DNA of 32,000 nucleotides. Origin: Candidatus Saccharimonadota bacterium. Lineage in GTDB: Bacteria > Patescibacteriota > Saccharimonadia > Saccharimonadales > Saccharimonadaceae. The notes under the pieces are model-generated. The model did not search any database. It worked only from the letters and a program-made list of their open reading frames with translations, and was not told the DNA's origin. How positions within the stretch are numbered: the stretch's first letter is position 1; every line of letters starts with the position of its first letter. Of this stretch, positions 2,533-25,346 are shown piece after piece. Location: contig NZ_CP045921.1 of the NCBI RefSeq assembly GCF_025273655.1, positions 570,001 through 602,000 on the forward strand. The letters are read 5' to 3'. The position numbers and the translations under genes were made by a program.

Positions 2533-3189
2533 CTATATCTCGTCATTTAACTTGCGGAGCGCCTCATCCCAATCTTGCGGAGGAGTGTCGAATTGCAGCT
2601 CCATCTGCTGGAGTGCCGTTTCGTGCAAATACCGCTCATGAGCTTGCCAAGCCGCGCGAATCACCACACCGCACCCAACTCTAAACATACGTTGCTTTGA
2701 TACATCAGGCACCACTGCAGACTCCACTCCTTCAATTCTCTGCTCCGCTTCTTCGCCTGCGAGTAGTATGCCTCTCTCTGCATAGCTAACTAATTTAGAC
2801 GCCAACACATGACGATCTTGTAGCGCATCATCAGTTTCGCGTGTTTCCGGCAGATCAAGTGTGAACGAATCGAGCGGAACAAGGTTGCCGTGAAGCTTCG
2901 GGACGAGCAGACCGCCAAATGCCGCTCCCGCTATCGCAACCCGAGCGCCTGCTAGACCCTCTTCTGTTGCGCTCTCTGACATTCTGTCCATTTCCACTAA
3001 CGTTATGCCGATTGAAGTCACAAATGTGTTCATAAAAGTTTTGAAAGCCAACGAATTATGCATACCTCGCTGAATACTACCCTGCATGGCGTCAGGAGAT
3101 ACGATATGTTCTTGCCACACAATCTCTTCTACGGCTGCCTCGTATTCTACATGTGTTGGTAGTGGGTATTCAAATCGTGGCACACTCAT
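2533..3189 (-). CDS. Hypothetical protein, 218 aa, no family recognised
   Basis: Long ORF with a consensus promoter immediately upstream. No recognisable motif. Confidence 0.7.
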   Translation of the reverse strand: MSVPRFEYPLPTHVEYEAAVEEIVWQEHIVSPDAMQGSIQRGMHNSLAFKTFMNTFVTSIGITLVEMDRMSESATEEGLAGARVAIAGAAFGGLLVPKLHGNLVPLDSFTLDLPETRETDDALQDRHVLASKLVSYAERGILLAGEEAEQRIEGVESAVVPDVSKQRMFRVGCGVVIRAAWQAHERYLHETALQQMELQFDTPPQDWDEALRKLNDEI

Positions 3190-3236: not shown

Positions 3237-3770
3237 CTACTCCCCAGCCAGCAACTTGATCGCCACCACCCCAATACCAATACTCAGTTCCGCCAAGCTA
3301 ATCAAGAGTACCTTGCCAAAAGAATCATAAATTCGTCGACTTCCCATAACCGAAAAAAGAAAGAGCGACAGCAGTAGCACAACCATCGACGCAAACAACG
3401 CGCGCTTGAGCTCCAATATGCCAAACGCACTCAATATCACTAGTATCGATGGTACGACAGCCGGCGCCAGTAGCCCAGATGCTGCAAAAAAGATCTTGCG
3501 ATATTCGCTGAGCGGCATACCCTTTGCGTGGACTGCCCTGTACGACATACGCGCCGACATAAGTGTTGCCAGCCATAACGCAGCTACCGTTCCAATAATA
3601 GTAGCCAGCGCGCCACCCTGCGAATGATGCACTGCTCCATGCCAGAGCGCTACTACCACAGCTAGCAACGTTATAGTCGAGTAGATACGCTCCTTGGTGT
3701 TTTCTGCAAACTGCTCACGTGCCTCTAGCGGCAAATCTTCGAAGCGTTGTTCTCTACGACGTCGTTCCAT
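3237..3770 (-). CDS. Integral membrane protein, 177 aa, unassigned
   Basis: Charged N-terminus followed by about 4 hydrophobic helices. TACAAT box (3777-3782) 6 nt upstream of the ATG. Confidence 0.75.
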   Translation of the reverse strand: MERRRREQRFEDLPLEAREQFAENTKERIYSTITLLAVVVALWHGAVHHSQGGALATIIGTVAALWLATLMSARMSYRAVHAKGMPLSEYRKIFFAASGLLAPAVVPSILVILSAFGILELKRALFASMVVLLLSLFLFSVMGSRRIYDSFGKVLLISLAELSIGIGVVAIKLLAGE

Positions 3771-5191: not shown

Positions 5192-6055
5192 TCATGCGCT
5201 CCGCCGCACCGGTGCTCGGCTCGTTAAACCGGCATGGTGCGCCGCAACTGCTTCTGTCATAAAGTTCAAAAACTTATACTCTGAGCGTGTGAGGTCATGG
5301 TTATTCGCATCCGCTATCACCAGGGACAGCAGGTAATTCACCTTTTCCGCCAAAGTCTCACCACTATGTAACTGTGTCACCTTTGAAGCTTTTTCTATAA
5401 TTGGATTAAGCGTGAGAATAGTGATACACTCATCGTATACTTTTTGCGTAGGCACTAGTTTTTGCTGAATCGGCAGTTTATCTTGTCCTGTATAGAAATA
5501 GCTATCATGGTTAAACTTCTTTTTCGCCGACTGCTCTTCGCGTGGGGAAGCCGGATACAACAGCAAGTCTGGACGCTTCATGCGCGCAGATAGACACAGT
5601 ACAGCCACCTCCGCCATGCGCCACTGCGGCGGCTCCTCGATGCTCAGTGGCCGTTGATACTGCAGTGCACTGCCCAAGCTCTTGTAAACACCTTCGCAAT
5701 CTTCGTCGCTAACAGTCTCTCCTGTCGCACGCCTCATGAGCAATGGCATGTAACTACCAAGTGTCAACGCACCCAACCTCAGATCTTCTGTCGAATCAGC
5801 ATGTTGCATGATATTGCCGAGTAGCATATGCGCTATGTCGAAGTAATACTGTATCAGCTCGCGATCATCAAGCTCATTAATTGCGTACTCAACATGATTC
5901 CATGCCGAATGAAAAAGACCCGGCGGCATGCGTCGGGTCTCATAGCGCCTCATAGCAGCATCGGCGAGCTGCGGCGAGATTTGCTCTGCAAGCGGGCGTG
6001 GAGCACAGTCTTCGAACAGTTTATCCTCCACAACCTGCCGATCAATTTCGCTCAT
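5192..6055 (-). CDS. Hypothetical protein, 287 aa, no family recognised
   Basis: Long ORF with promoter TTGACA-18-TATAAC 7 nt upstream of the ATG. Its stop is 1 nt from the convergent kinase stop. Confidence 0.7.
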   Translation of the reverse strand: MSEIDRQVVEDKLFEDCAPRPLAEQISPQLADAAMRRYETRRMPPGLFHSAWNHVEYAINELDDRELIQYYFDIAHMLLGNIMQHADSTEDLRLGALTLGSYMPLLMRRATGETVSDEDCEGVYKSLGSALQYQRPLSIEEPPQWRMAEVAVLCLSARMKRPDLLLYPASPREEQSAKKKFNHDSYFYTGQDKLPIQQKLVPTQKVYDECITILTLNPIIEKASKVTQLHSGETLAEKVNYLLSLVIADANNHDLTRSEYKFLNFMTEAVAAHHAGLTSRAPVRRSA

Positions 6056-7995: not shown

Positions 7996-8031
7996 CAATA
8001 TAAATCCGCCTCCCTTATGAGAGGCGGATTT
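7996..8031 (-). terminator. Terminator hairpin downstream of rpoC
   Basis: 11-bp stem AAATCCGCCTC/GAGGCGGATTT (8002-8012 / 8021-8031). The minus-strand tail ATATTGCC is only moderately T-rich. Confidence 0.55.
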
Positions 8032-8050
8032 ACTCTGCGTCCTTAGAAAA

Positions 8051-11000
8051 CTATGCGACAAGATCGAGATCTTCGGTAATCTCTTCGGCGACATAGTCGC
8101 TTTCAAGTTCGCCAGATTCCACGCCGGTACCGACAGGAATCTTGCGACCGATGATCACGTTTTCTTTCAGTCCACCCAGGTGATCAGCACGACCAGACGT
8201 GGCGGCGTTAATCAGTACGCGAGTCGTGTCTTGGAACGATGCGGCAGACAGCCAGCTATCAGACCAGATCGAGACTTTGGTGATACCGAGGAGCAGCTGC
8301 GTATAGGCCACAAGCTCTTTGCCTTCTTCAAGTAAACGCGCGTTTTCGGCTACTACCGCAGCCTTCGACACGATATCGCCTGTCACGAAGGTACTGTCAC
8401 CAGGCTCTTCGATCTGCACGCGAGAGAACATCTGTCGTACGATGATCTCGAGGTGCTTGTCGGCAACATCTTGACCCTGAGCAGCGTAGATGCGCAGAAT
8501 CTCGTTGATGATGTAGCGCTGAGTGGCTTCAGTACCTTTGAGGCGCATGAGCTCCTGTAGGTTGAGTGAGCCAGATGTCAGGCGATCACCAGCAACCACG
8601 ACATCATTTGCCTTCACTACAAGCTGTGCAGTGCCAGGAATTTCGTAGCGAGTTGGCGCACTAGCATTTGCAGCAATCACGATCGTATCGTCGGTTGCTT
8701 CTACTACACCGTCAAACGGTGCCACGAGTGGTTTGGTACCTTCGTCGCCAGTCGCGATCACGTCGCCGACCTTGACGCTGCTGCCTTCTTTGACAGCCAT
8801 CTTGCGGCCATCCAGCGCAATCTTCTCTACTTTGCCAGACTCTGGAGTAATCTGTACGATGTACTTTTTGCCATCCTCCCAGACATCTACCAGACCAGCG
8901 ACTTCAGTAATATGTGCCTGACCCTTTGGCTGACGAGCTTCGAACAGCTCTTCGACACGAGGCAGACCCTGCGTGATGTCGCTACCAGCCACACCAGAGC
9001 TGTGGAAGGTGTTGAGCGTCAGCTGGGTACCCGGTTCACCGACAGACTGTGCGGCGATCACGCCAACAGGCTGCGCGTTTGCTACCAGTTGTCCAGTTGC
9101 CATGTCGACACCGTAGCTCTTCTGTGGAATACCACGAAGGTTTTTGGTGCTGAGCACGCTTTGGATTTTCACTTCCGTAACATCGGCATCGGCATCGATA
9201 CCATCGGCAATCTCACGCGTAATTAACTGATCAGCCTCAACGTGACCAGGTATGGCCTCGGCGGTATAGCGACCAGCCAAGCGGTTCCCGAAGTCAATCA
9301 TCGTCTCTTCAGTTTCGCTGCGGTAGATAGTATAGCCATCGTCGTCGCCAGCTTCGTCTTCGACAGTGAATACGTCCTGCGATACGTCCACGAGACGGCG
9401 AGTCAGGTAACCCGAGTCGGCTGTTTTAAGCGCAGTGTCGATGAGACCTTTACGCGCACCACGAGTTGCCACGAAGGCTTCGAGGCTCGAAAGTCCCTGT
9501 TTGAAGTTTGAACGGATAGGCAGCTCAATTTCACGGTTGGTCGCGTCGACCTGAATACCGATCATCGCGCTTGCCAACTTAACGTTGGAGATCGTACCAC
9601 GAGCGGCTGAGTTGACCATGGTCGAGATACTTGTGTCCATGCTCTTGAGCTCGTCACGGAGCAACTCTTCGACTTTGCCGTCGACCTGGCGCCAGGTGTT
9701 GACTGTCAATGTATAGCGTTCGTCGTCGGTGATGAGGCCCTGGTCGTACTGATCAGAGATCAATGCAGACTTGGCGTCACCTTCGGCGATGAACTCATGG
9801 ATGGCGTCAAACGACAGGTAGTCGTCTTTACCGGTTGAGATAGCGGCGACTGTCGCAAAACGGAAGGCCAAGCCTTTCATACGGTCGGCAGTCTTGGCAG
9901 TTTCTTCGGCACCAAATTTGTCGAAAATCTGCGCCAATACCTTCTTGAGTTGCTTCTTGTCTTGTGGTGCTTCCTGGTACGGGAAATCTTCCGGCAGAAT
10001 TTCGTTGAAGAACACGCGGCCAAGAGTTGTATCGCGGATTTCACCCTTACTGAACACGCGGATCGGTGTTTGCAGCTGGATCACTCCATTGTCGTAGGCC
10101 ATCTCGGCTTCGTAGACAGAGCTGTAGGCTTTGCGAGTTTCGGTCTGTGCGGCAGGCTTAGCGTATGTGAGGTAGTAATTGCCGAGTACGACGTCCTGGT
10201 TGATGTTAAGCACTGGACTACCGTCGGCAGGCTTCAGCAGGTTATTTGTTGCGCTCATCAGCTCGCGAGCTTCGCGCTGTGCAGCTTCAGACAGTGGCAA
10301 GTGGACAGCCATCTGGTCACCGTCGTAGTCGGCGTTGAAACCGTTGGCGACGAGTGGGTGCAGCTGGATAGCCTTGCCTTCGACGAGCTTCGGCATAAAC
10401 GCCTGGATGCTCAAACGGTGAAGTGATGGTGCACGGTTGAGGAGTACGTACTTACCTTCGATTACGGCGTCGAGTGCGTCCCATACTACTGCATCACCAG
10501 CCTCGATAAGACGAGTTGCCGAGCGGATGTTGTGGGCATGCTCGTTGCGGAGCAGCCAGCTGATGACAAAAGGCTTAAACAGCTCAAGTGCCATCTGCTT
10601 CGGCAAACCACACTGGTTAATCTTCAGCTTTGGACCAACCACGATCACACTACGACCAGAGTAGTCGACACGTTTACCCAGGAGGTTCTGACGGAAACGA
10701 CCCTGTTTACCTTTGAGCATATCACTCAGGCTTTTCAGACGTCGACGACCACCTGTCGCATTAACCGCGCGACCACCACGAGCAGCACTGTTGTCCACCA
10801 GGGCATCGACTGCTTCTTGCAACATGCGCATTTCGTTGCGACGAATTACTTCTGGCGCGTTGAGGTCGAGCAGCTTCTTGAGACGGTTGTTACGGTTAAT
10901 GACACGGCGATAGAGATCGTTGAGGTCACTAGTCGCAAAACGACCACCTGTCAGCTGCACCATCGGACGAAGATCTGGTGGGATAACAGGCAAGACAGTC

Positions 11001-15520: not shown

Positions 15521-16216
15521 ATGACTAGCGAACCACAAACAGAATCTACCAATGCCTTGCTCAACAAACTCCGCGCCGCCGTACTTGGCGCCAACGATGG
15601 CATCGTGAGCACTAGCGCCGTCGTGATGGGCGTAGCCGGTGCTAGTAGCGACAATCAAGCCATCGCCACCGCAGGCTTTGCCGCACTCGTGGCTGGCGCC
15701 CTTTCTATGGCAGTGGGCGAATACGTCTCCGTGAGCAGTCAGAGTGACACCGAAAAAGCCTATATTCGCCGCGAAAAGAAGCTGCTCCACGAGAATCCAG
15801 CCGAAGAACAGCAGCAACTCGCCAAGTACTACCAATCTCAAGGGGTGTCACCCAAGACCGCCAAGCTCGTAGCCGCCGATTTACACCAGTCCAACGCTCT
15901 CCAAGCGCACCTGCGCATGCACTTCGGCATAGACGAAGACGATCTTAACAGCCCGGTTCAGGCTGCCGTCGCCTCTCTACTCGCCTTCACTGCTGGTGGC
16001 CTAGTGCCTTTTCTTGCCGTCATACTTGCACCGCACGAGCTCAAACTCCAAATCACATTTGTAGCTGTACTCATCGCCCTGGTGGCGACCGGCTACTTTA
16101 GCGCACATGTCGGCGGAGCACGCAAATCCCGGGCTATCTTACGTGTCGTACTAGGTGGTGCGCTCGCCATGCTCCTTACTTACGGAATCGGCATGCTCTT
16201 TGGAACTATTGCATAA
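15521..16216 (+). CDS. VIT1/CCC1-family iron/manganese transporter
   Basis: LRAAVLGANDGIVSTSAVVMGVAGA signature, central soluble segment and C-terminal TM helices typical of the VIT family. Confidence 0.85.
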   Translation: MTSEPQTESTNALLNKLRAAVLGANDGIVSTSAVVMGVAGASSDNQAIATAGFAALVAGALSMAVGEYVSVSSQSDTEKAYIRREKKLLHENPAEEQQQLAKYYQSQGVSPKTAKLVAADLHQSNALQAHLRMHFGIDEDDLNSPVQAAVASLLAFTAGGLVPFLAVILAPHELKLQITFVAVLIALVATGYFSAHVGGARKSRAILRVVLGGALAMLLTYGIGMLFGTIA

Positions 16217-16259: not shown

Positions 16260-16754
16260 ATGGAAAGTAACGTTCACCTTTTGCCTACTAAACTTGTGGG
16301 TGAAAAATTATCCGTCGACAGAGTGACTCATATTGCCGAAGACGCCAAAGTCAGTTTTTTGCTTCTACATCCTGAGTTTGAAAAGCAAGCACAAATCATT
16401 GTTGACGAGATGCTAGCCGCCAAGGAGGCTTTTGGAGAATATACAGATAATGAGCTTCGAGAAGAAACAACTGAAGCCCTAGAGGAGCTGCTCCATGGAA
16501 AGTCTGCCATCCCCCATGAAGAACTTTTACCCTCGAATCAAGTCTCTCATGCGCTTTCGCGTGTTGCTCTTTACGATGCTTCCCTGTTGTCACGCGAGGA
16601 CACCGTTTTACACTATCCGTTTCTGCAATCAGAACGTGCCACGATATATAAGGATCGAGAGTTCCAAGATTTATACGATACTATTCTCACCGATCTCAGC
16701 GATATAATCAACGATATACGTACGCACGGCGGATATCCTGCAGTCAGCTTATAG
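16260..16754 (+). CDS. Hypothetical acidic protein, 164 aa
   Basis: ORF directly behind the near-consensus promoter. No family recognised. Confidence 0.7.
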   Translation: MESNVHLLPTKLVGEKLSVDRVTHIAEDAKVSFLLLHPEFEKQAQIIVDEMLAAKEAFGEYTDNELREETTEALEELLHGKSAIPHEELLPSNQVSHALSRVALYDASLLSREDTVLHYPFLQSERATIYKDREFQDLYDTILTDLSDIINDIRTHGGYPAVSL

Positions 16755-18618: not shown

Positions 18619-19902
18619 CTATTTCGCGTTGAGCGCAACCAACTCGTCAATCGTCTTGTCAGTTAGCAGACGATTTGCAATATCGCGCTGCACCTCTGGC
18701 GTAGCTAGTTGCTTGCGCATGTCTTCGGAGGGGTATTGCTGGCCGAGCAAGTTCATTTTTTCGAGCAATTCAGCATCTGTCGCCTGCACCTTGAGCACCT
18801 TACTCAGGTCGGCAAGCACTAGACCAGCTTTTACGCGGTTCACTGCAGCTTCTTTGACTTCGCTCTCTAACCAAGCATCTTTGTCTTTGAAATCTTTTTC
18901 CGCCAAGTACATGTCGAGTGTCAAACCACGCTGCATGAGGTTTTGCACCATATCCTGCTCTATAGAGCGCATCTGATCCTGTACTAGGATTTCTGGCACT
19001 GGTACGTCGCTCTTCTCTACCAGTTCACTAACGAGCGCATCCTTCAATTTGTCATCAGCTTCACTCTGCTTTTGCTTGGTGATCTCGGCTTTAATATCGT
19101 CTTCGAGTTCTTTGACCGTTTTGAATGGACCGGCTTTTGCCGCTAATTCGTCGGTCAGCTCTGGCTCCACCACCTCTTTGACTTCGTTGAGTGTGACACT
19201 AAACACAACCTTGGCACCTTTGAGGTCCTCGACATGATAGTGCTCTGGAAACGCCAGGTCGAGATCGAACTTGTCACCGGCTTTATGCCCCACGATGCCG
19301 TCTTCGAAGCCAGGGATGAAACTGTCACTGCCAAGCACGATATCATAACCTTCGGCTGTGCCGCCATCAAACGCTACACCCTCTTTTTTGCCGACGAAGT
19401 CGATGTTGACTTCGTCGCCTTTTTTAGCTTTGCGGTCAGCTGGTTTTTTCTCAGCATAGCCTGCGCGGATACGGTCAATAATCTCATCAACGTCTTTTTT
19501 GGTGACACTGACTTTTTCTGGCTTCGCGGCAAGCTTCTTGTAGTCACCGAGCTTGATCTTGGGCAAAATCTCACTCGTAGCGACGAATTCGAGTTCGCTG
19601 CCGGGCTCAAACTTCTTGACTTCTACCTCTGGTCGATCAAGTGCCTGTACTCCTGCGTCAAGAAACGCATCTGCTACAGCCTTGGACAACGCGTTTTCCA
19701 GTGTATGCTGTGCAAGATCATTGGGATTGACATGTTTGGCTGCCACGCTCGCAGGAACCTTGCCTTGGCGAAAACCAGGGACTTTGATGTCTCGTGCGAT
19801 TTTGGTCAATGCCACCAGTTCGGCGTCTTTCAGCTCATCGGCACTAACAGTAATAGTAAGTTCGACTTTCGTCTCGGATAGGTGTTTTGTAGTTTGCTTC
19901 AT
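18619..19902 (-). CDS. tig: Trigger factor
   Basis: 427 aa with the ribosome-binding signature GFRQGKVP and a central FKBP-type domain. TGcTATACT lies 9 nt upstream of the ATG. Confidence 0.95.
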   Translation of the reverse strand: MKQTTKHLSETKVELTITVSADELKDAELVALTKIARDIKVPGFRQGKVPASVAAKHVNPNDLAQHTLENALSKAVADAFLDAGVQALDRPEVEVKKFEPGSELEFVATSEILPKIKLGDYKKLAAKPEKVSVTKKDVDEIIDRIRAGYAEKKPADRKAKKGDEVNIDFVGKKEGVAFDGGTAEGYDIVLGSDSFIPGFEDGIVGHKAGDKFDLDLAFPEHYHVEDLKGAKVVFSVTLNEVKEVVEPELTDELAAKAGPFKTVKELEDDIKAEITKQKQSEADDKLKDALVSELVEKSDVPVPEILVQDQMRSIEQDMVQNLMQRGLTLDMYLAEKDFKDKDAWLESEVKEAAVNRVKAGLVLADLSKVLKVQATDAELLEKMNLLGQQYPSEDMRKQLATPEVQRDIANRLLTDKTIDELVALNAK

Positions 19903-19971: not shown

Positions 19972-21318
19972 TTACTCTGCAAACAACGCGTCAATCTCAT
20001 CCATTGTGCCACGTCGGCGATAATCGCGCACGCGTGTCACGATACGCTCGAGACTCAGTTTTTCCTCTGTCTCGGATGCCACGTCTTTGAAAGCATAGAG
20101 GTTATGCCTCAGCTCATCTTCGCCCACAAATGCCATAAACGGTACTTGTTTTTTCAGTACAGCTTTTATCTGCCTATCGAGCTTTCGGCCAGAAATATCA
20201 ACCTCGACATTGACACCTTCTGCGCGGAGCTTTCGCGCAAAACCTAGCGCACCTTCTAGTGTATCTTCACCCAGTACGACTATAGCAATGTCTGTCGTAG
20301 AGACGAACTCGGGTAATAGTTTGTGTGACTCGAGAAACAGCTGCATGGGGGTGAGACCAGGTGCCATACCGACAGTCGGTACCGGATCGACACCAAAGAG
20401 CCCGACGAGCCCGTCGTAGCGACCACCGCCGAACATCGAGCGGTTATTGTCTGGGTGCATGTCGAACACCTCGAACACCGTACCTGTGTAGTAATCCAGG
20501 CCACGCATGAGCGTGATGTCGAACGTCGCGTTTGCCACGCCTGCATCGGCTAGCAACGTGAAGAGTTCCTGTACTTCGAGTACTGCTTCACTTTCACGAA
20601 GTTCTGCAGGGAGGTCTGCCATAGACTTGGCTGTGATAAGTTTGGCGATTTTGGCTGCACCTTCACTCGCACGATCCTCGCCGAAGATATCTACTACTTG
20701 GTCACGAAAACTTTCTGCGGGAATTTTATTTTTGCGATCAAACAGCTTTACCATCAAGTGTGATTGCACTGCGTCAAGCCCCAAGTAGTCGTGCATCATA
20801 AAGTTGATAAGCTTGCGATTGTTGATACGAACAGCAAACATCTCATCGCTCGCACCAAACGCTTTGACGATCTCATAGGCCATGGCGATAATCTCCGCCT
20901 CAGCCTGCACGCCGTCGACACCAAATATATCGGTATTGAGCTGCCAAAACTCACGTTCACGACCACGCTGCGGACGCTCGTATCGCATGAAGTTGGCGAT
21001 ACTATAGAGACGCGCAGGGTATCCTAGTTCCTGACGACGAGCTGCCACCATACGGCTCACACTCGGTGTCATCTCGGGACGTATTGCCACTGTACGATCG
21101 CCACGATCGGTGAATGTGTAGGTTTGCTCGGTTGCAAGCTCTTGACCACTTTTTGCAGTATAAATCTCGAGTGGCTCGAGCACCGGCGCAGCATACTCTT
21201 CGTAACCATGCTGCTGTGCCACTTTGCGCCACATGTCGAAGATGTAGTTGCGCACACGCATATCTTCTGGATAGTAGTCTCGCGTACCTTTGTACGGCTG
21301 GGTACTGAGTGAACTCAT
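19972..21318 (-). CDS. hisS: Histidine--tRNA ligase
   Basis: 448 aa with KGTRDYYPEDM, class II motif 2 FMRYERPQRGREREFWQ and GGGRYDGL. Confidence 0.95.
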   Translation of the reverse strand: MSSLSTQPYKGTRDYYPEDMRVRNYIFDMWRKVAQQHGYEEYAAPVLEPLEIYTAKSGQELATEQTYTFTDRGDRTVAIRPEMTPSVSRMVAARRQELGYPARLYSIANFMRYERPQRGREREFWQLNTDIFGVDGVQAEAEIIAMAYEIVKAFGASDEMFAVRINNRKLINFMMHDYLGLDAVQSHLMVKLFDRKNKIPAESFRDQVVDIFGEDRASEGAAKIAKLITAKSMADLPAELRESEAVLEVQELFTLLADAGVANATFDITLMRGLDYYTGTVFEVFDMHPDNNRSMFGGGRYDGLVGLFGVDPVPTVGMAPGLTPMQLFLESHKLLPEFVSTTDIAIVVLGEDTLEGALGFARKLRAEGVNVEVDISGRKLDRQIKAVLKKQVPFMAFVGEDELRHNLYAFKDVASETEEKLSLERIVTRVRDYRRRGTMDEIDALFAE

Positions 21319-21380
21319 AATGTTGTAATCCTATCATCTTTATCTGTTATTTGCAAGGGTAAGCGACTTGTCATCTGTAC

Positions 21381-21406
21381 AAAAAACGCCGAAGCGAGTT
21401 CGGCGT
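21381..21406 (-). terminator. Intrinsic terminator inside the hisS leader (candidate attenuator)
   Basis: Stem ACGCCGAA/TTCGGCGT, loop CTCGC, followed on the minus strand by TTTTTT. Lies 62 nt upstream of the hisS ATG. Confidence 0.7.
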
Positions 21407-21432
21407 AGATTCGTTATTTGGACATAAGAGAG

Positions 21433-21486
21433 CTAGCCGACTTGCTCCGGCGACAGATGCAGATGATGGATAGTTCGATAAATCAT
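21433..21486 (-). CDS. Candidate 17-codon His-rich leader peptide (MIYRTIHHLHLSPEQVG)
   Basis: Hand-translated. The ATG is 6 nt downstream of TATAAT. Three CAT codons within four positions. The stop lies 26 nt before the terminator. Confidence 0.45.
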   Translation of the reverse strand: MIYRTIHHLHLSPEQVG

Positions 21487-21492
21487 ATGTAT

Positions 21493-21498
21493 ATTATA
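21493..21498 (-). promoter_or_regulatory. TATAAT box for the hisS leader transcript
   Basis: Minus strand: tttgGTAGTATAAT atacat ATG. Confidence 0.5.
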
Positions 21499-21579
21499 CT
21501 ACCAAATGACTTAAATTGCTATAGATGCTATTGCTTAGCATATTAAGCATCCCAACCAGCTAGAGAACGGCGGCTATTC

Positions 21580-21613
21580 ACAAGTAAATACCGCCTCATC
21601 ACTGAGGCGGTAT
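21580..21613 (-). terminator. Terminator after the LPXTG protein gene
   Basis: 11-bp stem ATACCGCCTCA/TGAGGCGGTAT (21588-21598 / 21603-21613), minus-strand tail TTACTTGT. Confidence 0.6.
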
Positions 21614-21636
21614 CATGTGGATCACGTGTGGAGTGA

Positions 21637-22911
21637 CTAGAACAATCGGCGGCTAGCAGCGTAGTAATACGCGCTGAGGCTCATGGCAGCCAGGCCAACA
21701 CCTGCACCGAGCAAGTCACCGGTACCGGTCTTTGGCAGCTCTACTGGAGCTGGCGTAGGCTGGACACAGTCAGGGCTGTTCTTTGGCAAATGCTCTTTGC
21801 CCGGGATAGGACATTTCTCTTCGCAATCTTTCAGATTGGTAGAGTATTTGCTGCTGTCAAACTGATCTTTATTGATTGTGATGACTTTTTTGGTTGCAAG
21901 TTCACATACTACGAGTTTTTCTGGTGGTGGAGTTGGGATCTCGAAGCTTTGTTTACATGCCTCGCTGGTGGCGGTCACTTCTTTGCCGTTTGCAGTAAAT
22001 GTCACTGTTGCTTGGACAGAATATTTGCCGGGAGCCGAAGCCGTGTATGTCGCAGTATTTGGCGAGCCCGCTACCGTCGTGCTGCCGCTAGGGCCAGTCA
22101 CCATGTAACTCACGCTTTTGAATGTGGCGTTGGTAGCGCTATAGGTTGTCTGGAACTGATACTGATTGTCGCCCTGCTTGGTGACGCTCAGGCCAGTACA
22201 TGCGTAGACAGGCACAACTTCTTTACAGTCTTCGAGGTTTTTACTGTGCAGCTGCGGGTTGAACTGATCTTCTTTGATAGTGATGATCTTTTTAGTCGCA
22301 AGTTCACATACCTTGATATCTGGCACTGGTGGCTTTGGTGGCACTGGTGGTGGCACTGGTTTTGCATATACAGGGTTACCGCATGCTTTGATGATGGCGT
22401 TTTTGAAATTGCCGTCTTTGTCGAGCACGACCAAAGTTGCCAGAGATGCGTTTGGATTCGCAAATGCTTGACCACCGACATGTGACGTCTGGTAGTAGCG
22501 CTCACCATTGATAGAAATCGGGCTGCTATGCGCAATAGCCTGGCGACCGACACTAGCCGCGTTTGTTGCAACTACACGACCGTTGGCGATCACTTCACCC
22601 TTGTTATTTGACGTACCATTGATCACTTGATCACCGGCCGCGAGATTTGGCTTGATCCAATAGTGATTGTAGATAGCTTGCAAATCACCACAAGTGTTTG
22701 CATTGTAATTACGCGTCACATCACCGTAGTTCTGGATGCCGCTTGGAACGATGTTATTCGTCTGGGCGTTACACGGACTCGCCGCATCGGCCGCAGTCTG
22801 GTTGAATTGATAAAAGCCGACGCCTGTCAGCATGACCGCCAACACGAACACAGCCGAGACGATTGCCTTGCTACTTCGTGCATAACGAAATGTATTGATT
22901 ATACCTTGCAT
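21637..22911 (-). CDS. LPXTG-anchored cell-surface protein with an internal repeated module
   Basis: N-terminal signal/TM segment, proline-rich linkers, and C-terminal LPKTG + hydrophobic stretch + RR tail. Start set at ATG 22911 (GAGGTG 5 nt upstream); the track start is a GTG inside the SD. Confidence 0.85.
   Translation of the reverse strand: MQGIINTFRYARSSKAIVSAVFVLAVMLTGVGFYQFNQTAADAASPCNAQTNNIVPSGIQNYGDVTRNYNANTCGDLQAIYNHYWIKPNLAAGDQVINGTSNNKGEVIANGRVVATNAASVGRQAIAHSSPISINGERYYQTSHVGGQAFANPNASLATLVVLDKDGNFKNAIIKACGNPVYAKPVPPPVPPKPPVPDIKVCELATKKIITIKEDQFNPQLHSKNLEDCKEVVPVYACTGLSVTKQGDNQYQFQTTYSATNATFKSVSYMVTGPSGSTTVAGSPNTATYTASAPGKYSVQATVTFTANGKEVTATSEACKQSFEIPTPPPEKLVVCELATKKVITINKDQFDSSKYSTNLKDCEEKCPIPGKEHLPKNSPDCVQPTPAPVELPKTGTGDLLGAGVGLAAMSLSAYYYAASRRLF
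21817..21912 (-). repeat. Intragenic repeat copy 2 (VVCELATKKVITINKDQFDSSKYSTNLKDCEE)
   Basis: Direct protein- and DNA-level similarity to 22219-22314. Confidence 0.8.
22219..22314 (-). repeat. Intragenic repeat copy 1 (KVCELATKKIITIKEDQFNPQLHSKNLEDCKE)
   Basis: Direct protein- and DNA-level similarity to 21817-21912. Confidence 0.8.
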
Positions 22912-22946
22912 GTTACACCTCACTCCACATTAGGTTAACTATCTTC

Positions 22947-23008: not shown

Positions 23009-23608
23009 TTATTTTTTCAAAAGAATATGTCTTTCAACCCACTTGTACATGAGTATACCAGACGCCACCCCTACATTAATAGACCTAGTGCTACCAAATT
23101 GCGGAATCGCGACAATCATATTAGCTCGCTGAAGCATTTCCTCTGAAATACCGGGACCTTCGCCTCCAAATACCAATACCGCGTCTTTCGGCATGTCAAC
23201 AGTATCGAGCGACTGTGAGCTTTCGACATTGTCCACCGCTACGATCGTGCGACCCCTGATGGCTACGACAAAGTCTTCTACTGTCGCATGGTACACCACT
23301 TCTAGATATGCATCTGTTTTCATAGCGCCGCGCTTGTTCCACTGCCTGCGGCCAATCACATGCACTCGCCGTACGTTGAACGCGTTTGCATTACGCACGA
23401 TTGTGCCCATGTTGTAGTCACGCTCGAGATTTTCCACCCCGATCTCCAGACCTCCACTACCTGCCTGCATGTCCTCGCGGATTGCCTCGATTGTCCAATA
23501 GCGATATTTATCGGCGACATTGCGTCCGTCCCCATGCGCGAGCAACTCTCGGTCGTAGCGAGGGCCGGTTGGCCAAGGCCTAGGATGGGGGGCAGTGCCG
23601 TTTGTCAT
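23009..23608 (-). CDS. SpoU/TrmH-family RNA 2'-O-methyltransferase
   Basis: RNANAFNV, LVFGGEGPGISEEML and IPQFGSTRSINVGVASGILMY motifs of the SPOUT class. Confidence 0.85.
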   Translation of the reverse strand: MTNGTAPHPRPWPTGPRYDRELLAHGDGRNVADKYRYWTIEAIREDMQAGSGGLEIGVENLERDYNMGTIVRNANAFNVRRVHVIGRRQWNKRGAMKTDAYLEVVYHATVEDFVVAIRGRTIVAVDNVESSQSLDTVDMPKDAVLVFGGEGPGISEEMLQRANMIVAIPQFGSTRSINVGVASGILMYKWVERHILLKK

Positions 23609-25220: not shown

Positions 25221-25250
25221 CACAATATAAAACCCCGGCCTGGAGCCGGG
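25221..25250 (-). terminator. Terminator downstream of tRNA-Leu(CAG)
   Basis: Stem CCCGGC/GCCGGG (25234-25239 / 25245-25250), minus-strand tail GTTTTATATT. Confidence 0.6.
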
Positions 25251-25259
25251 ATGTTATAT

Positions 25260-25346
25260 TGGTACAGATGAGAGGACTTGAACCTCCACGTCCCGAAGGA
25301 CACTAGCACCTGAAGCTAGCGCGTCTACCAATTCCGCCACATCTGC
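25260..25346 (-). tRNA. tRNA-Leu (anticodon CAG), type II, CCA encoded
   Basis: 87 nt: GCAGATGTGGCGGAATTGGTAGACGCGCTAGCTTCAGGTGCTAGTGTCCTTCGGGACGTGGAGGTTCAAGTCCTCTCATCTGTACCA. Long variable arm, close to E. coli tRNA-Leu(CAG), with a G1-U72 wobble. Confidence 0.95.

What the first reader, a model, noticed from the sequence alone, without database searches (positions are those of the whole stretch)
21381..21498. Candidate histidine-codon leader-peptide attenuator upstream of hisS
Seen on the minus strand: TATAAT (21498-21493) is followed after 6 nt by ATG ATT TAT CGA ACT ATC CAT CAT CTG CAT CTG TCG CCG GAG CAA GTC GGC TAG. This encodes MIYRTIHHLHLSPEQVG, with three His codons at positions 7, 8 and 10. 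After a further 26 nt comes an intrinsic terminator, ACGCCGAA-CTCGC-TTCGGCGT-TTTTTT (21406-21381), lying 62 nt before the hisS ATG.
The four-segment logic of classical attenuators is present:
- Segment 1 is GCCGG, leader nt 36-40.
- Segment 2 is TCGGC, nt 47-51, ending at the stop codon.
- Segment 2 can pair either with segment 1 or with GCCGA in the left arm of the terminator.
A ribosome stalled at the His codons would cover segment 1 and free segment 2 to disrupt the terminator. A ribosome reaching the stop codon would cover segment 2 and allow termination.
Established: this is the trp/his/pheST attenuation mechanism, and hisS in Firmicutes is usually T-box controlled.
Caveats: the alternative helices are only 5 bp, there are only three His codons, and no T-box consensus is present.
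Basis: partly seen in the sequence, partly recalled or inferred. Interest (0 to 1): 0.75.

Follow-up and report, generated by a model that had tools for sequence, protein, structure and literature searches.

The report
Histidine-codon leader attenuator before hisS
A 17-codon mini-gene with three histidine codons, followed by a transcription stop signal, sits in front of the histidyl-tRNA synthetase gene of a Saccharibacteria (TM7) genome; the same arrangement recurs in at least 24 related sequences, so it is very probably a histidine-sensing on/off switch of the classical attenuator type, not previously catalogued for this group.

Summary

**What holds**
- A covariance model built only from relatives finds window 21468-21378(-) at 79 bits, E=2.5e-18.
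- 24 homologous leaders were collected from Saccharibacteria genomes and metagenomes. All lie upstream of hisS or of operons ending in hisS. One operon is hisG-hisD-hisS.
- The leaders conserve an ATG, an H-H-x-H codon cluster with synonymous CAT/CAC changes, an in-frame stop, and a terminator with compensatory changes.

**Corrections**
1. The mini-gene is predicted to be leaderless: its -10 box ends 6 nt before the ATG.
2. The antiterminator is not a 5-bp helix. It is a roughly 19-bp pairing of leader nt 35-54 with the whole terminator (-29.2 against -20.6 kcal/mol).
3. A conserved promoter-like element lies between the terminator and hisS. In this genome the switch therefore probably modulates only part of hisS transcription.

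**Status**
There is no Rfam match. The mechanism is the known leader-peptide attenuation, so this is a new member of a known kind in a new phylum. Histidine responsiveness is inferred, not shown.

The parts
21582..21610 (-). Terminator-like hairpin of the upstream surface-protein gene: CCGCCTCA-GTGA-TGAGGCGG followed by TATTTACTT. It insulates the leader unit from upstream transcription.
   Evidence: Read directly from the sequence. The consensus scan does not list it because its T-run is weak.
21493..21521 (-). Promoter P1 of the leader. The -35-like hexamer TAGCAA is at 21521-21516 and the -10 TATAAT at 21498-21493, after a 17-nt spacer. An alternative is an extended -10, TGgTAGTAT, at 21504-21496. 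Either reading puts the transcription start 0-3 nt before the ATG.
   Evidence: Sequence. In 23 of 25 homologous leaders a TAnnnT hexamer ends 6-10 nt before the ATG. Many of them have a canonical TTGACA-17-TAnnAT promoter, and 23 of 25 have no Shine-Dalgarno sequence. The consensus scan did not call P1, because its -35 is weak.
21433..21486 (-). Leaderless short ORF (leader peptide) MIYRTIHHLHLSPEQVG plus its TAG stop.
   Evidence: Homologous peptides include MIYKTNHHSHLLPERIG, MNILTIHHSHLLPKRVG, MNITARHHRHLLPE and MFNKTNQHHLHILPEYVG.
21457..21468 (-). Sensor codons CAT CAT CTG CAT (His7, His8, Leu9, His10).
   Evidence: The H-H-x-H arrangement is conserved. The middle codon varies freely. 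The His codons change only CAT<->CAC, apart from 3-4 leaders that keep two His. His is 17% of leader codons against 2.2% in the window's genes.
21433..21452 (-). Antiterminator 5' arm. A1 is CGCCGGAGC (leader nt 35-43) and A2 is AGUCGGCUAG (nt 45-54, including the stop codon). A1 pairs with the 3' arm and loop of the terminator, and A2 with its 5' arm.
   Evidence: MFE fold, z=-4.08. Energies. Pair counts: 87.6% of cells paired against 25-49% when the partners are slid, and the key pair is GC 9/AU 7/GU 7 and never unpaired.
21381..21406 (-). Intrinsic terminator ACGCCGAA-CUCGC-UUCGGCGU followed by a U-run.
   Evidence: In relatives, 97% of cells are paired, 4 of 8 pairs carry compensatory changes, and 0 of 500 shuffles reach the observed values.
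21315..21374 (-). 19-codon uORF MTSRLPLQITDKDDRITTL. Its TGA stop overlaps the hisS ATG (ATGA). It may provide translational coupling for read-through transcripts.
   Evidence: Several relatives have an in-frame N-terminal extension of hisS at the same place, preceded by a Shine-Dalgarno sequence. No function has been tested.
21328..21356 (-). Promoter-like element P2, lying between the terminator and hisS. The -35 TTGCAA is at 21356-21351. After a 17-nt spacer comes the extended -10 TGaTAGGAT, with its hexamer at 21333-21328, 9 nt before the hisS ATG.
   Evidence: The strict pattern is present in 12 of 40 hisS loci, against 0.009 expected by chance. By eye, most of the remaining loci carry a relaxed TGnNAnnAT form. 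P2 occurs whether or not a leader is present. Eight other genes of the window have a -10 box 6-9 nt before their ATG.
19972..21318 (-). hisS, histidine-tRNA ligase, 448 aa. This is the regulated gene.
   Evidence: Pfam. TIGR00442 above its curated cut-off; hisZ model below its cut-off.

Best explanation
This is a ribosome-mediated (leader-peptide) transcription attenuator that reports the supply of charged tRNA-His.

**Proposed sequence of events**
1. Transcription starts at or within 3 nt of the ATG of a 17-codon short ORF. A 70S ribosome can therefore load on the 5' end as soon as it emerges. This step is inferred.
2. When His-tRNA is plentiful, the ribosome runs to the UAG. There it covers leader nt 35-54 (A1+A2). 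The downstream hairpin ACGCCGAA/UUCGGCGU plus its U-run then forms, and RNA polymerase terminates about 105 nt into the transcript.
3. When His-tRNA is scarce, the ribosome pauses at codons 7-8 (CAU CAU). A1+A2 stay free and pair with both arms of the terminator, about 19 bp. The terminator cannot form, and transcription reads on into hisS.

**Relatives and this genome**
- In relatives the same leader precedes operons that carry extra genes before hisS (hisG, hisD and others).
- In this genome those genes are absent. A separate promoter-like element, P2, lies between the terminator and hisS.
- The attenuator therefore most likely adds a histidine-starvation-inducible share on top of basal, leaderless hisS expression.

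**Shown**
- The sequence elements.
- Their conservation.
- Terminator covariation.
- Thermodynamic competition between the two folds.
- Linkage of the leader to hisS.

**Inferred**
- The transcription start.
- Translation of the short ORF.
- The histidine response.
- P2 activity.
For: **Family is real**
- A model without the window sequence scores the site at 79 bits, E=2.5e-18.
- Six leaders that were not in model R1 scored 32-90 bits.

**Linkage to histidine genes**
- 15 of 43 hisS loci found by protein homology carry the leader, always on the hisS strand and upstream.
- A metagenome pattern scan gave 10 more leaders. All 6 with enough downstream sequence are followed by hisS, and L045 reads leader-hisG-hisD-hisS.
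- In those loci the first gene after the terminator has a Shine-Dalgarno sequence, and I saw no promoter-like element in the 30-45 nt between the terminator and that gene. The leader therefore looks like its 5' UTR.

**Coding signature**
- The ATG sits at a fixed distance from a -10 box in 23 of 25 leaders.
- The leaders share HHxH with only synonymous His changes and a free middle codon.
- The stop codon always lies from 16 nt before to 2 nt after the end of A2.

**Structure**
- Terminator: 97% of cells paired, 4 of 8 pairs compensatory, 0 of 500 shuffles reach this.
- Antiterminator: 87.6% paired against 25-49% when slid.
- Lineage-specific compensations in A2:T5, seen by eye: L017 AUAGAUCGG/CCGAUCUAU, L037 UGAGCGG/CCGCUCA, L030 UCGCGG/CCGCGA (sequences).
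- In the window the antiterminator fold is -29.2 kcal/mol, against -20.6 for the best fold that keeps the terminator. The fold z-score is -4.08.

**Logic test**
- With a ribosome footprint placed at His codon 1 or 2, terminator probability is below 0.5 in 25 of 25 leaders.
- With the footprint at the stop codon it is above 0.5 in 25 of 25 (median 0.96).
- Both results hold for three footprint sizes.
Against: - There is no experimental datum on transcript ends, translation or histidine response.
- P2 sits downstream of the terminator in this genome. hisS could therefore be expressed without any read-through, and the quantitative weight of the attenuator is unknown.
- How hisS would be translated from a read-through transcript is unclear. 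The only candidates are an AGGA 10 nt upstream and the uORF overlap.
- There are only three His codons. Stalling at the third gives an ambiguous outcome in the folds.
- Antiterminator covariation is modest: the covariation score is reached by 49 of 500 shuffles, and the GCCG/CGGC cores never vary.
- 10 of the 25 leaders were found with a pattern that fixed the His codons and A1/A2. Those ten cannot testify to the conservation of these features.
- At equilibrium the untranslated RNA favours read-through in 22 of 25 leaders but termination in 3. The default state is therefore not settled.
- P1 in the window has a weak -35 and was not called by the consensus scan.
Confidence: 0.75

Rival explanations
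1. In this genome the unit is a relic or an independent small transcript. The short ORF and terminator are made as a stand-alone RNA of about 105 nt (a small protein or a trans-acting sRNA), and hisS is expressed only from P2. Adjacency to hisS would then be inherited synteny, without cis-regulation here.
For: - P2 is conserved directly before hisS, whether or not a leader is present.
- Leaderless promoters of this type are common in the window.
- Relatives such as L001 have cargo genes between the leader and P2-hisS. The window may have lost the cargo that the leader really controlled.
- Attenuator-derived RNAs can act in trans in Sinorhizobium (PMC6614838, abstract listed).
Against: - All elements are intact in the window: 79 bits against a model of the relatives, with no degradation of the ATG, His codons, A1/A2 or terminator.
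- At least seven other lineages also have the leader next to hisS with no cargo gene between: L007, L008, L010, L014, L017, L021 and L040.
- Read-through from P1 must physically enter hisS, 62 nt downstream on the same strand.
Confidence: 0.12
2. The conserved CAU-rich segment and the helices form a switch that works without translation. It would be a tRNA-His-binding element (T-box-like), a riboswitch, or a protein-binding leader, and the ORF would be incidental.
For: - hisS is T-box-controlled in Bacillus and lactobacilli (PMC2965389).
- His codons could in principle pair with the tRNA-His anticodon.
- A1 and A2 are conserved at the RNA level.
Against: - There is no Rfam hit of any family, T-box included, in 21250-21700 even at E<=10, and none at gathering score in the window other than the tRNA.
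- Only about 34 nt precede A1, and they are conserved neither in sequence nor in structure. What is conserved there is the ATG, the reading frame, the His codons with wobble-only changes, and the stop.
- The ATG tracks the -10 box at 6-7 nt in most leaders. That spacing is expected for a leaderless start codon and unexplained for an RNA aptamer.
Confidence: 0.05
3. It is a ribosome-dependent attenuator that senses general translation capacity (ribosome availability, leaderless initiation efficiency, stringent conditions) rather than histidine specifically.
For: - In the folds, any failure of a ribosome to reach the stop codon gives the antiterminator in 22 of 25 leaders, including no translation at all.
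- There are only 2-4 His codons, far fewer than the seven in the enterobacterial his leader (my own knowledge, not checked here).
Against: - His codon identity is the most conserved coding feature of the peptide.
- The downstream genes are hisS, hisG and hisD.
- The two readings are not exclusive.
Confidence: 0.06

Closest known systems
Classical leader-peptide attenuators of amino-acid operons and of pheST in Proteobacteria (trpL, hisL, pheM)
   Same: - A short ORF carries codons for the cognate amino acid.
- A terminator competes with a mutually exclusive antiterminator.
- Ribosome position chooses between the two.
- As with pheST, the target is an aminoacyl-tRNA synthetase gene. (The description of this family rests on my own knowledge, not on a paper read here.)
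   Different: - There is no sequence or model similarity: Rfam has no hit, His_leader included.
- The short ORF is predicted to be leaderless rather than led by a Shine-Dalgarno sequence.
- There are only three His codons, arranged HHxH.
- The antiterminator engages both arms of the terminator (A1:T3 plus A2:T5), not only a 2:3 helix.
- A promoter-like element lies between the terminator and the gene.
[quoted passage not shown]
   Same: A His-codon short ORF with a premature terminator lies in front of a hisS-family gene, outside Proteobacteria. That case was also identified by comparative genomics only.
   Different: It is in a different phylum and concerns a paralog or regulatory subunit rather than the housekeeping HisRS. 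The window's gene passes the hisS equivalog cut-off and not the hisZ one. Direct sequence similarity was not tested, because the Bacillus sequences were not retrieved.
Leaderless leader peptides of corynebacterial attenuators (ilvB leader; PMC5784534, PMC11857589)
   Same: The leader peptide gene starts at the transcription start site, so the transcript is leaderless. It controls a downstream terminator or antiterminator.
   Different: Those leaders sense branched-chain amino acids, control biosynthetic operons and occur in Actinobacteria. In Corynebacterium the leaderless start was mapped experimentally; here it is only predicted from -10 box spacing.
Polycysteine leaderless short ORFs of mycobacteria (Canestrari et al., bioRxiv 10.1101/834739)
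   Same: A leaderless sensory short ORF is enriched in one amino acid. It gives operon-level control through ribosome pausing, and many loci share the design.
   Different: [quoted passage not shown] Here an intrinsic terminator with covariation is the output element.
T-box leaders of hisS in Firmicutes
   Same: They have the same regulatory goal: they sense uncharged tRNA-His and read through a terminator before hisS.
   Different: There is no T-box or Stem I match. The leader is about 105 nt rather than 200 nt or more. A conserved reading frame is present instead.

Membership tests
Ribosome-mediated (leader-peptide) transcription attenuator | A short ORF in the leader with a start codon in a translatable context | tested here: met
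   - An ATG is conserved in 25 of 25 leaders.
- A -10 box ends 6-10 nt upstream in 23 of 25, which predicts a leaderless start.
- 23 of 25 have no Shine-Dalgarno sequence.
- Translation itself has not been shown.
Ribosome-mediated (leader-peptide) transcription attenuator | Clustered codons for the amino acid that matches the regulated genes | tested here: met
   HHxH is conserved. His is 17% of leader codons against 2.2% in the window's genes. Only CAT<->CAC changes occur. The downstream genes are hisS, and hisG and hisD in relatives.
Ribosome-mediated (leader-peptide) transcription attenuator | An intrinsic terminator between the short ORF and the regulated gene | tested here: met
   Covariation: 4 of 8 pairs compensatory, 0 of 500 shuffles reach this.
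Ribosome-mediated (leader-peptide) transcription attenuator | An alternative pairing that excludes the terminator and can be occluded by a ribosome at the end of the short ORF | tested here: met
   This is in silico only, and covariation for this helix is modest.
Ribosome-mediated (leader-peptide) transcription attenuator | Read-through increases when the cognate aminoacyl-tRNA is limiting | not testable with these tools
   This needs Term-seq, reporter assays or northern blots under histidine limitation.
Rfam His_leader (RF00514) and other curated leader families | A match to the family's covariance model | tested here: not met
   cmscan of 21250-21700 against all 4227 Rfam 15 models at E<=10 returned nothing.
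T-box riboswitch (RF00230) | Stem I with a specifier loop, plus the conserved T-box sequence in the antiterminator | tested here: not met
   There is no Rfam hit at E<=10. The leader has only about 34 nt upstream of the antiterminator arm.
Mycobacterial leaderless sensory short ORFs (translational attenuators) | Ribosome stalling unmasks a sequestered ribosome-binding site of the next gene | tested here: not met
   In this family the output element is a terminator with a U-run. The predicted folds of the window's leader stop at the terminator and do not cover the hisS start region. No pairing that sequesters that region was looked for.
Histidine-tRNA ligase (the regulated gene) | Passes the hisS equivalog model and has an anticodon-binding domain, so it is not the HisZ paralog | tested here: met
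   TIGR00442 scores 351.5 bits against a cut-off of 286.75. hisZ TIGR00443 scores 197 against a cut-off of 271.65. HGTP_anticodon 2e-14.

The most novel reading that the evidence does not exclude
The leader may mark a histidine 'ribulon' in Saccharibacteria, organisms usually regarded as unable to make amino acids.

**Cargo as candidate histidine-acquisition genes.** The variable genes inserted between the leader and hisS in relatives would then be unrecognised histidine-acquisition or salvage functions, identifiable because they share this sensor. They are:
- a short HisG with or without HisD;
- an AstE/AspA-type deacylase paired with an unknown 220-245-aa protein;
- a phosphoribosyltransferase-like protein with a nucleoside hydrolase or a SLOG protein;
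- an unknown 342-aa protein with a small partner.

**Two hisS mRNA forms in this genome.** The switch would in addition toggle hisS between two forms:
- a leaderless transcript from P2;
- a long read-through transcript translated through the overlapping uORF. In relatives the equivalent is a HisRS isoform with an N-terminal extension led by a Shine-Dalgarno sequence.
Probability: 0.25. Interest if true: 0.7.

Novelty: new member of a known kind. Interest (0 to 1): 0.5.

Why it matters
Cis-regulatory RNA elements are almost undescribed in Saccharibacteria and the wider candidate phyla radiation.
- My literature searches found no paper that combines Patescibacteria, leader peptide and attenuation.
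- Rfam has no model for this element.

If correct, the finding has three consequences.
1. A conserved His-codon attenuator shows that these reduced-genome epibionts monitor tRNA-His charging and tune HisRS. In some lineages they also tune hisG and hisD.
2. It gives a sequence model that can be used to annotate the element across the phylum.
3. It offers a handle for assigning function to the unknown genes that share the sensor.

The finding also adds evidence that leaderless transcripts are common in this lineage. The mechanism itself is textbook, so the advance is one of distribution and annotation, not of principle.

Tried and rejected
- **Rfam.** I scanned at gathering score over the whole window and at E<=10 over 21250-21700. 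Only the tRNA matched, so known leader, T-box and riboswitch families were rejected.
- **Metagenome pattern scan.** About 110 hits were chance matches inside GC-rich coding sequence and were discarded. I kept those with an AT-rich context and a terminator, and confirmed that each has an in-frame ATG upstream.
It is possible in all leaders, but its four core pairs never vary, so covariation can neither support nor refute it. I kept it only as an optional early-forming helix.
- **The conserved block before hisS read as coding sequence** (N-terminal extension or uORF). This was rejected as a general explanation, because the frame relative to hisS differs between lineages. It is out of frame in the window, L001 and L006, while the -35 and extended -10 positions are what stay conserved. 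It was not rejected for L007, L008, L021, L040, L137 and L144, where a Shine-Dalgarno-led, in-frame ATG exists.
- **L016.** It has a short ORF MARKKHHCHL 72 nt before hisS without a terminator. I looked for a structure sequestering the Shine-Dalgarno sequence and found none (z=+1.36). It remains unexplained.
- **Cargo proteins.** Pfam and NCBIfam searches of the unknown cargo proteins (342 aa, 220-245 aa, 123 aa) gave nothing.
- **Plus strand of the site.** The 42-aa antisense ORF 21418-21546 and a promoter-like match at 21467-21495 are within chance expectation: 10 promoter-like sites found against 7.4 expected.
Full report
**1. The observation**

On the minus strand the window reads as follows:

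| Element | Coordinates |
|---|---|
| TATAAT | 21498-21493 |
| spacer | 6 nt |
| ATG | 21486 |
| ORF ATG ATT TAT CGA ACT ATC CAT CAT CTG CAT CTG TCG CCG GAG CAA GTC GGC TAG (MIYRTIHHLHLSPEQVG) | stop at 21435-21433 |
| spacer | 26 nt |
| hairpin ACGCCGAA-CTCGC-TTCGGCGT | 21406-21386 |
| T-run | to 21381 |
| spacer | 62 nt |
| hisS ATG | 21318 |

- The terminator scan lists the hairpin independently, with 8 pairs, 5 of them G-C.
- The downstream ORF 21318-19972 is a genuine histidine-tRNA ligase.
  - Pfam tRNA-synt_His scores 1e-45, and an anticodon-binding domain is present.
  - TIGR00442 scores 351 bits against a cut-off of 287. The hisZ model stays below its cut-off.

**2. Is it more than chance?**

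- I scanned both strands of the 32-kb window for a -10 box, 5-9 nt, an ATG short ORF of 6-35 codons and a perfect-stem terminator. Only this locus was returned.
- His is 2.2% of codons in 21 genes of the window. Three His in 17 codons is therefore unusual by itself.
- The decisive test is comparative. A covariance model built from 23 related leaders, without the window, scores 21468-21378(-) at 79 bits, E=2.5e-18. The next hit in the window scores 17 bits and is just a terminator.

**3. Origin and relatives**

- hisS homology retrieved 42 loci from species-representative genomes. Almost all are labelled Saccharibacteria or Saccharimonadales. The closest is 86% identical in protein.
- The window is therefore from a member of the candidate phyla radiation, not a Firmicute.
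- Reading the upstream regions and then searching with a model showed the leader in 15 of 43 hisS loci. It is always on the hisS strand and upstream.
- A metagenome scan with a pattern spanning the His codons and the first helix segments was mostly noise from GC-rich coding DNA. It still yielded 10 further leaders in AT-rich contigs.
- Examples of the peptides: MIYKTNHHSHLLPERIG, MNILTIHHSHLLPKRVG, MNITARHHRHLLPE, MSHYTLHHTHLLPE, MTSKRQYHSHMQPENRG, MFNKTNQHHLHILPEYVG.

**4. What is conserved, and what that implies**

*Start codon and promoter*
- There is an ATG in all 25 leaders.
- A TAnnnT hexamer ends 6-10 nt upstream in 23 of 25, and by my count from the table it ends 6-7 nt upstream in about two thirds.
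- The hexamer is often preceded by TGn. In the metagenome set a canonical TTGACA lies 16-18 nt further upstream.
- 23 of 25 have no Shine-Dalgarno sequence.
- This spacing puts the transcription start on or next to the ATG. The short ORF is therefore predicted to be leaderless.
- The prediction fits the genome. Eight other genes in the window have a -10 box 6-9 nt before their ATG.

*Sensor codons*
- The cluster H-H-x-H is conserved.
- His codons vary only between CAT and CAC. The middle codon is unconstrained. Three or four leaders keep only two His.
- That pattern is what selection on codon identity produces. Selection on an RNA motif would not produce it.

*Stop codon*
- An in-frame stop always lies between 16 nt before and 2 nt after the end of the second helix segment.

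*Helices*
- Two RNA segments inside the 3' end of the ORF are conserved: A1 (GCCGRAG) and A2 ((G)UCGG). A terminator follows them.

**5. Structure**

*Terminator*
- In alignments of 18 and 23 leaders, 96-97% of cells are paired.
- 4 of 8 pairs carry compensatory changes.
- 0 of 500 shuffles reach the observed values.
- Slid controls give 31-51% pairing.

*Antiterminator*
- The minimum-energy fold of the window's leader is not the terminator. It is a long helix in which nt 35-54 (CGCCGGAGC-A-AGUCGGCUAG) pair with the whole terminator region (z=-4.08).
- This fold is -29.2 kcal/mol. The best fold that keeps the terminator is -20.6.
- Across relatives the pairing holds in 87.6% of cells, against 25-49% when slid.
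- The informative pair is G-C in 9 leaders, A-U in 7 and G-U in 7, and is never unpaired.
- Individual lineages show matched changes in A2 and the terminator 5' arm or loop, seen by eye: L017 AUAGAUCGG/CCGAUCUAU, L037 UGAGCGG/CCGCUCA and L030 UCGCGG/CCGCGA (sequences).
- The formal covariation score is only modest (49 of 500 shuffles), because the GCCG/CGGC cores never vary.

- The 5-bp hairpin (-6.9 kcal/mol) is possible everywhere but is invariant, so it cannot be tested.

**6. Does the logic work?**

I folded each of the 25 leaders with the 5' part masked, as a ribosome would mask it. I used three footprint sizes.

| Ribosome position | Outcome |
|---|---|
| First or second His codon in the A site | terminator stem probability below 0.5 in 25 of 25 (median 0.00) |
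| Stop codon in the A site | above 0.5 in 25 of 25 (median 0.96) |
| Third His codon in the A site | depends on the assumed footprint |
| No ribosome | antiterminator in 22 of 25, terminator in 3 |

- The His-His pair is therefore the likely sensor.
- The state without translation is not settled by thermodynamics.

**7. Link to histidine**

- Every leader with enough downstream sequence is followed by hisS on the same strand.
- The leader is either directly before hisS (window, L007, L008, L010, L014, L017, L021, L030, L040, L144, L147) or separated from it by one to three other genes.
- In L045 those genes are hisG (TIGR00070 above its cut-off) and hisD (Pfam 8e-161), followed by hisS.
- In L034 the intervening gene resembles that hisG by eye. 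It was not scanned against Pfam or NCBIfam.
- Other cargo:
  - an AstE/AspA-type deacylase with an unknown partner;
  - a phosphoribosyltransferase-like protein with a nucleoside hydrolase or a SLOG protein;
  - an unknown 342-aa protein with a small partner.
- In these loci the first gene after the terminator has a Shine-Dalgarno sequence, and I saw no promoter-like element in the 30-45 nt between the terminator and that gene. The leader therefore looks like its 5' UTR there.

**8. A complication in this genome**

- Between the terminator and hisS lies TTGCAA, a 17-nt spacer, then TGaTAGGAT, with the hexamer ending 9 nt before the ATG (21356-21328).
- The strict form of this pattern occurs at the same place in 12 of 40 hisS loci, against 0.009 expected. 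By eye, most of the others carry a relaxed extended -10 form. It occurs with or without a leader.
- It looks like the promoter of a leaderless hisS mRNA.
- The attenuator in the window therefore probably controls only the transcripts that start at P1.
- Those transcripts would need internal initiation at hisS. The candidates are the AGGA inside the -10 hexamer and a 19-codon uORF (21374-21315) whose TGA overlaps the hisS ATG.
- Six relatives instead have a Shine-Dalgarno-led ATG 17-21 codons upstream, in frame with hisS.
- None of this has been tested.

**9. Comparison with what is known**

- The mechanism is the classical leader-peptide attenuation.
- A His leader peptide before a Bacillus hisS paralog and hisZ was predicted in 2010 (PMC2965389).
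- Leaderless leader peptides are documented for the corynebacterial ilvB attenuator (PMC5784534, PMC11857589).
- Leaderless polycysteine short ORFs in mycobacteria act translationally (10.1101/834739).
- No Rfam family matches.
- No paper in the searched library links Patescibacteria with leader-peptide attenuation. A search for Saccharibacteria plus leaderless gave five papers; I opened only the top one, which cites the word in its reference list only.
- I therefore file it as a new member of a known kind: a new sequence family, in a new phylum, with a housekeeping synthetase as target.

**10. Verdict**

- Confidence that this is a His-responsive leader-peptide attenuator is about 0.75. The remaining doubt concerns the lack of any experimental evidence and the role of P2.
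- Interest is moderate, at 0.5. The principle is textbook, but the element is a well-supported, uncatalogued regulatory family in a poorly understood lineage, and it flags unknown genes that share a histidine sensor.

Noticed in passing
window 21328-21356 (-); also 2533-3189, 3237-3770, 5192-6055, 15521-16216, 16260-16754, 18619-19902, 23009-23608: About 8 of 24 genes in the window, hisS and tig among them, have a -10 box 6-9 nt before the ATG and no Shine-Dalgarno sequence. The box is often an extended TGnTAnnAT, sometimes with TTGACA 17 nt upstream. Leaderless mRNAs therefore seem common in this Saccharibacterium. The hisS element (P2) is conserved in many relatives.
   Followed up: partly
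window 21315-21374 (-); L007, L008, L021, L040, L137, L144 upstream of hisS: In the window a 19-codon uORF (MTSRLPLQITDKDDRITTL) ends with a TGA that overlaps the hisS ATG. In six relatives the homologous stretch carries a Shine-Dalgarno-led ATG 17-21 codons upstream and in frame with hisS (for example L144, MTSRLSLQYQPKNATITP-MSTL...). This suggests two hisS start sites, one for leaderless P2 transcripts and one for read-through transcripts.
   Followed up: partly
L045 4169-7398; L034 1764-2447; L006/L009/L087/L114; L115/L141; L001/L137: Relatives carry variable 'cargo' genes between the His leader and hisS.
- L045 has hisG and hisD.
- L034 has a gene that resembles that hisG by eye.
- L006, L009, L087 and L114 have an AstE/AspA-type deacylase plus an unknown 220-245-aa protein with a PWYE-SKC motif.
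- L115 and L141 have a phosphoribosyltransferase-like protein with a nucleoside hydrolase or a SLOG/LOG protein.
- L001 and L137 have an unknown 342-aa protein plus a 123-aa protein.

Several have no Pfam or NCBIfam match. A short HisG next to HisRS, with no hisZ in view, is curious.
   Followed up: partly
L016 2429-2500: A different short ORF, MARKKHHCHL, has a TATAAT 9 nt upstream. It lies 72 nt before a Shine-Dalgarno-led hisS, with no terminator and no significant structure (z=+1.36). It could be a degenerate or translational variant of the His sensor. It remains unexplained.
   Followed up: partly
25 leaders (window 21457-21468 and relatives): His codons in the leaders are about 86% CAT. 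That is my tally of the table: about 62 of 72, not computed by script. The window's genes use CAT 86: CAC 101. The skew may reflect selection for the wobble-decoded codon or simply AT-rich intergenic composition. The leaders are not phylogenetically independent.
   Followed up: no
window 21637-22923 (-): The upstream gene encodes a 428-aa protein with an N-terminal hydrophobic segment and a C-terminal LPKTG motif followed by a hydrophobic tail, which looks like a sortase-type anchor. It also has two internal copies of a module of roughly 130 aa (VCELATKK[IV]ITI..DQF...). It has no Pfam match. Several relatives have a similar protein upstream of hisS.
   Followed up: no
window 25222-25346 (-) and 7998-8065 (-): tRNA-Leu(CAG) lies at 25260-25346 and is followed at once by a terminator-like hairpin. 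That hairpin gives a weak partial hit to the leader model, over the terminator part only. A second such hairpin lies just after the 1277-aa ORF that ends at 8051. Terminator hairpins in this genome seem to share the GCCG...CGGC core.
   Followed up: no
L010, L025, L028 (record titles): Three hisS relatives with 61-73% identity and Saccharibacteria-like context are labelled Chloroflexi, Nomurabacteria and Dongiaceae MAGs in their records. These are probably binning or labelling errors.
   Followed up: no
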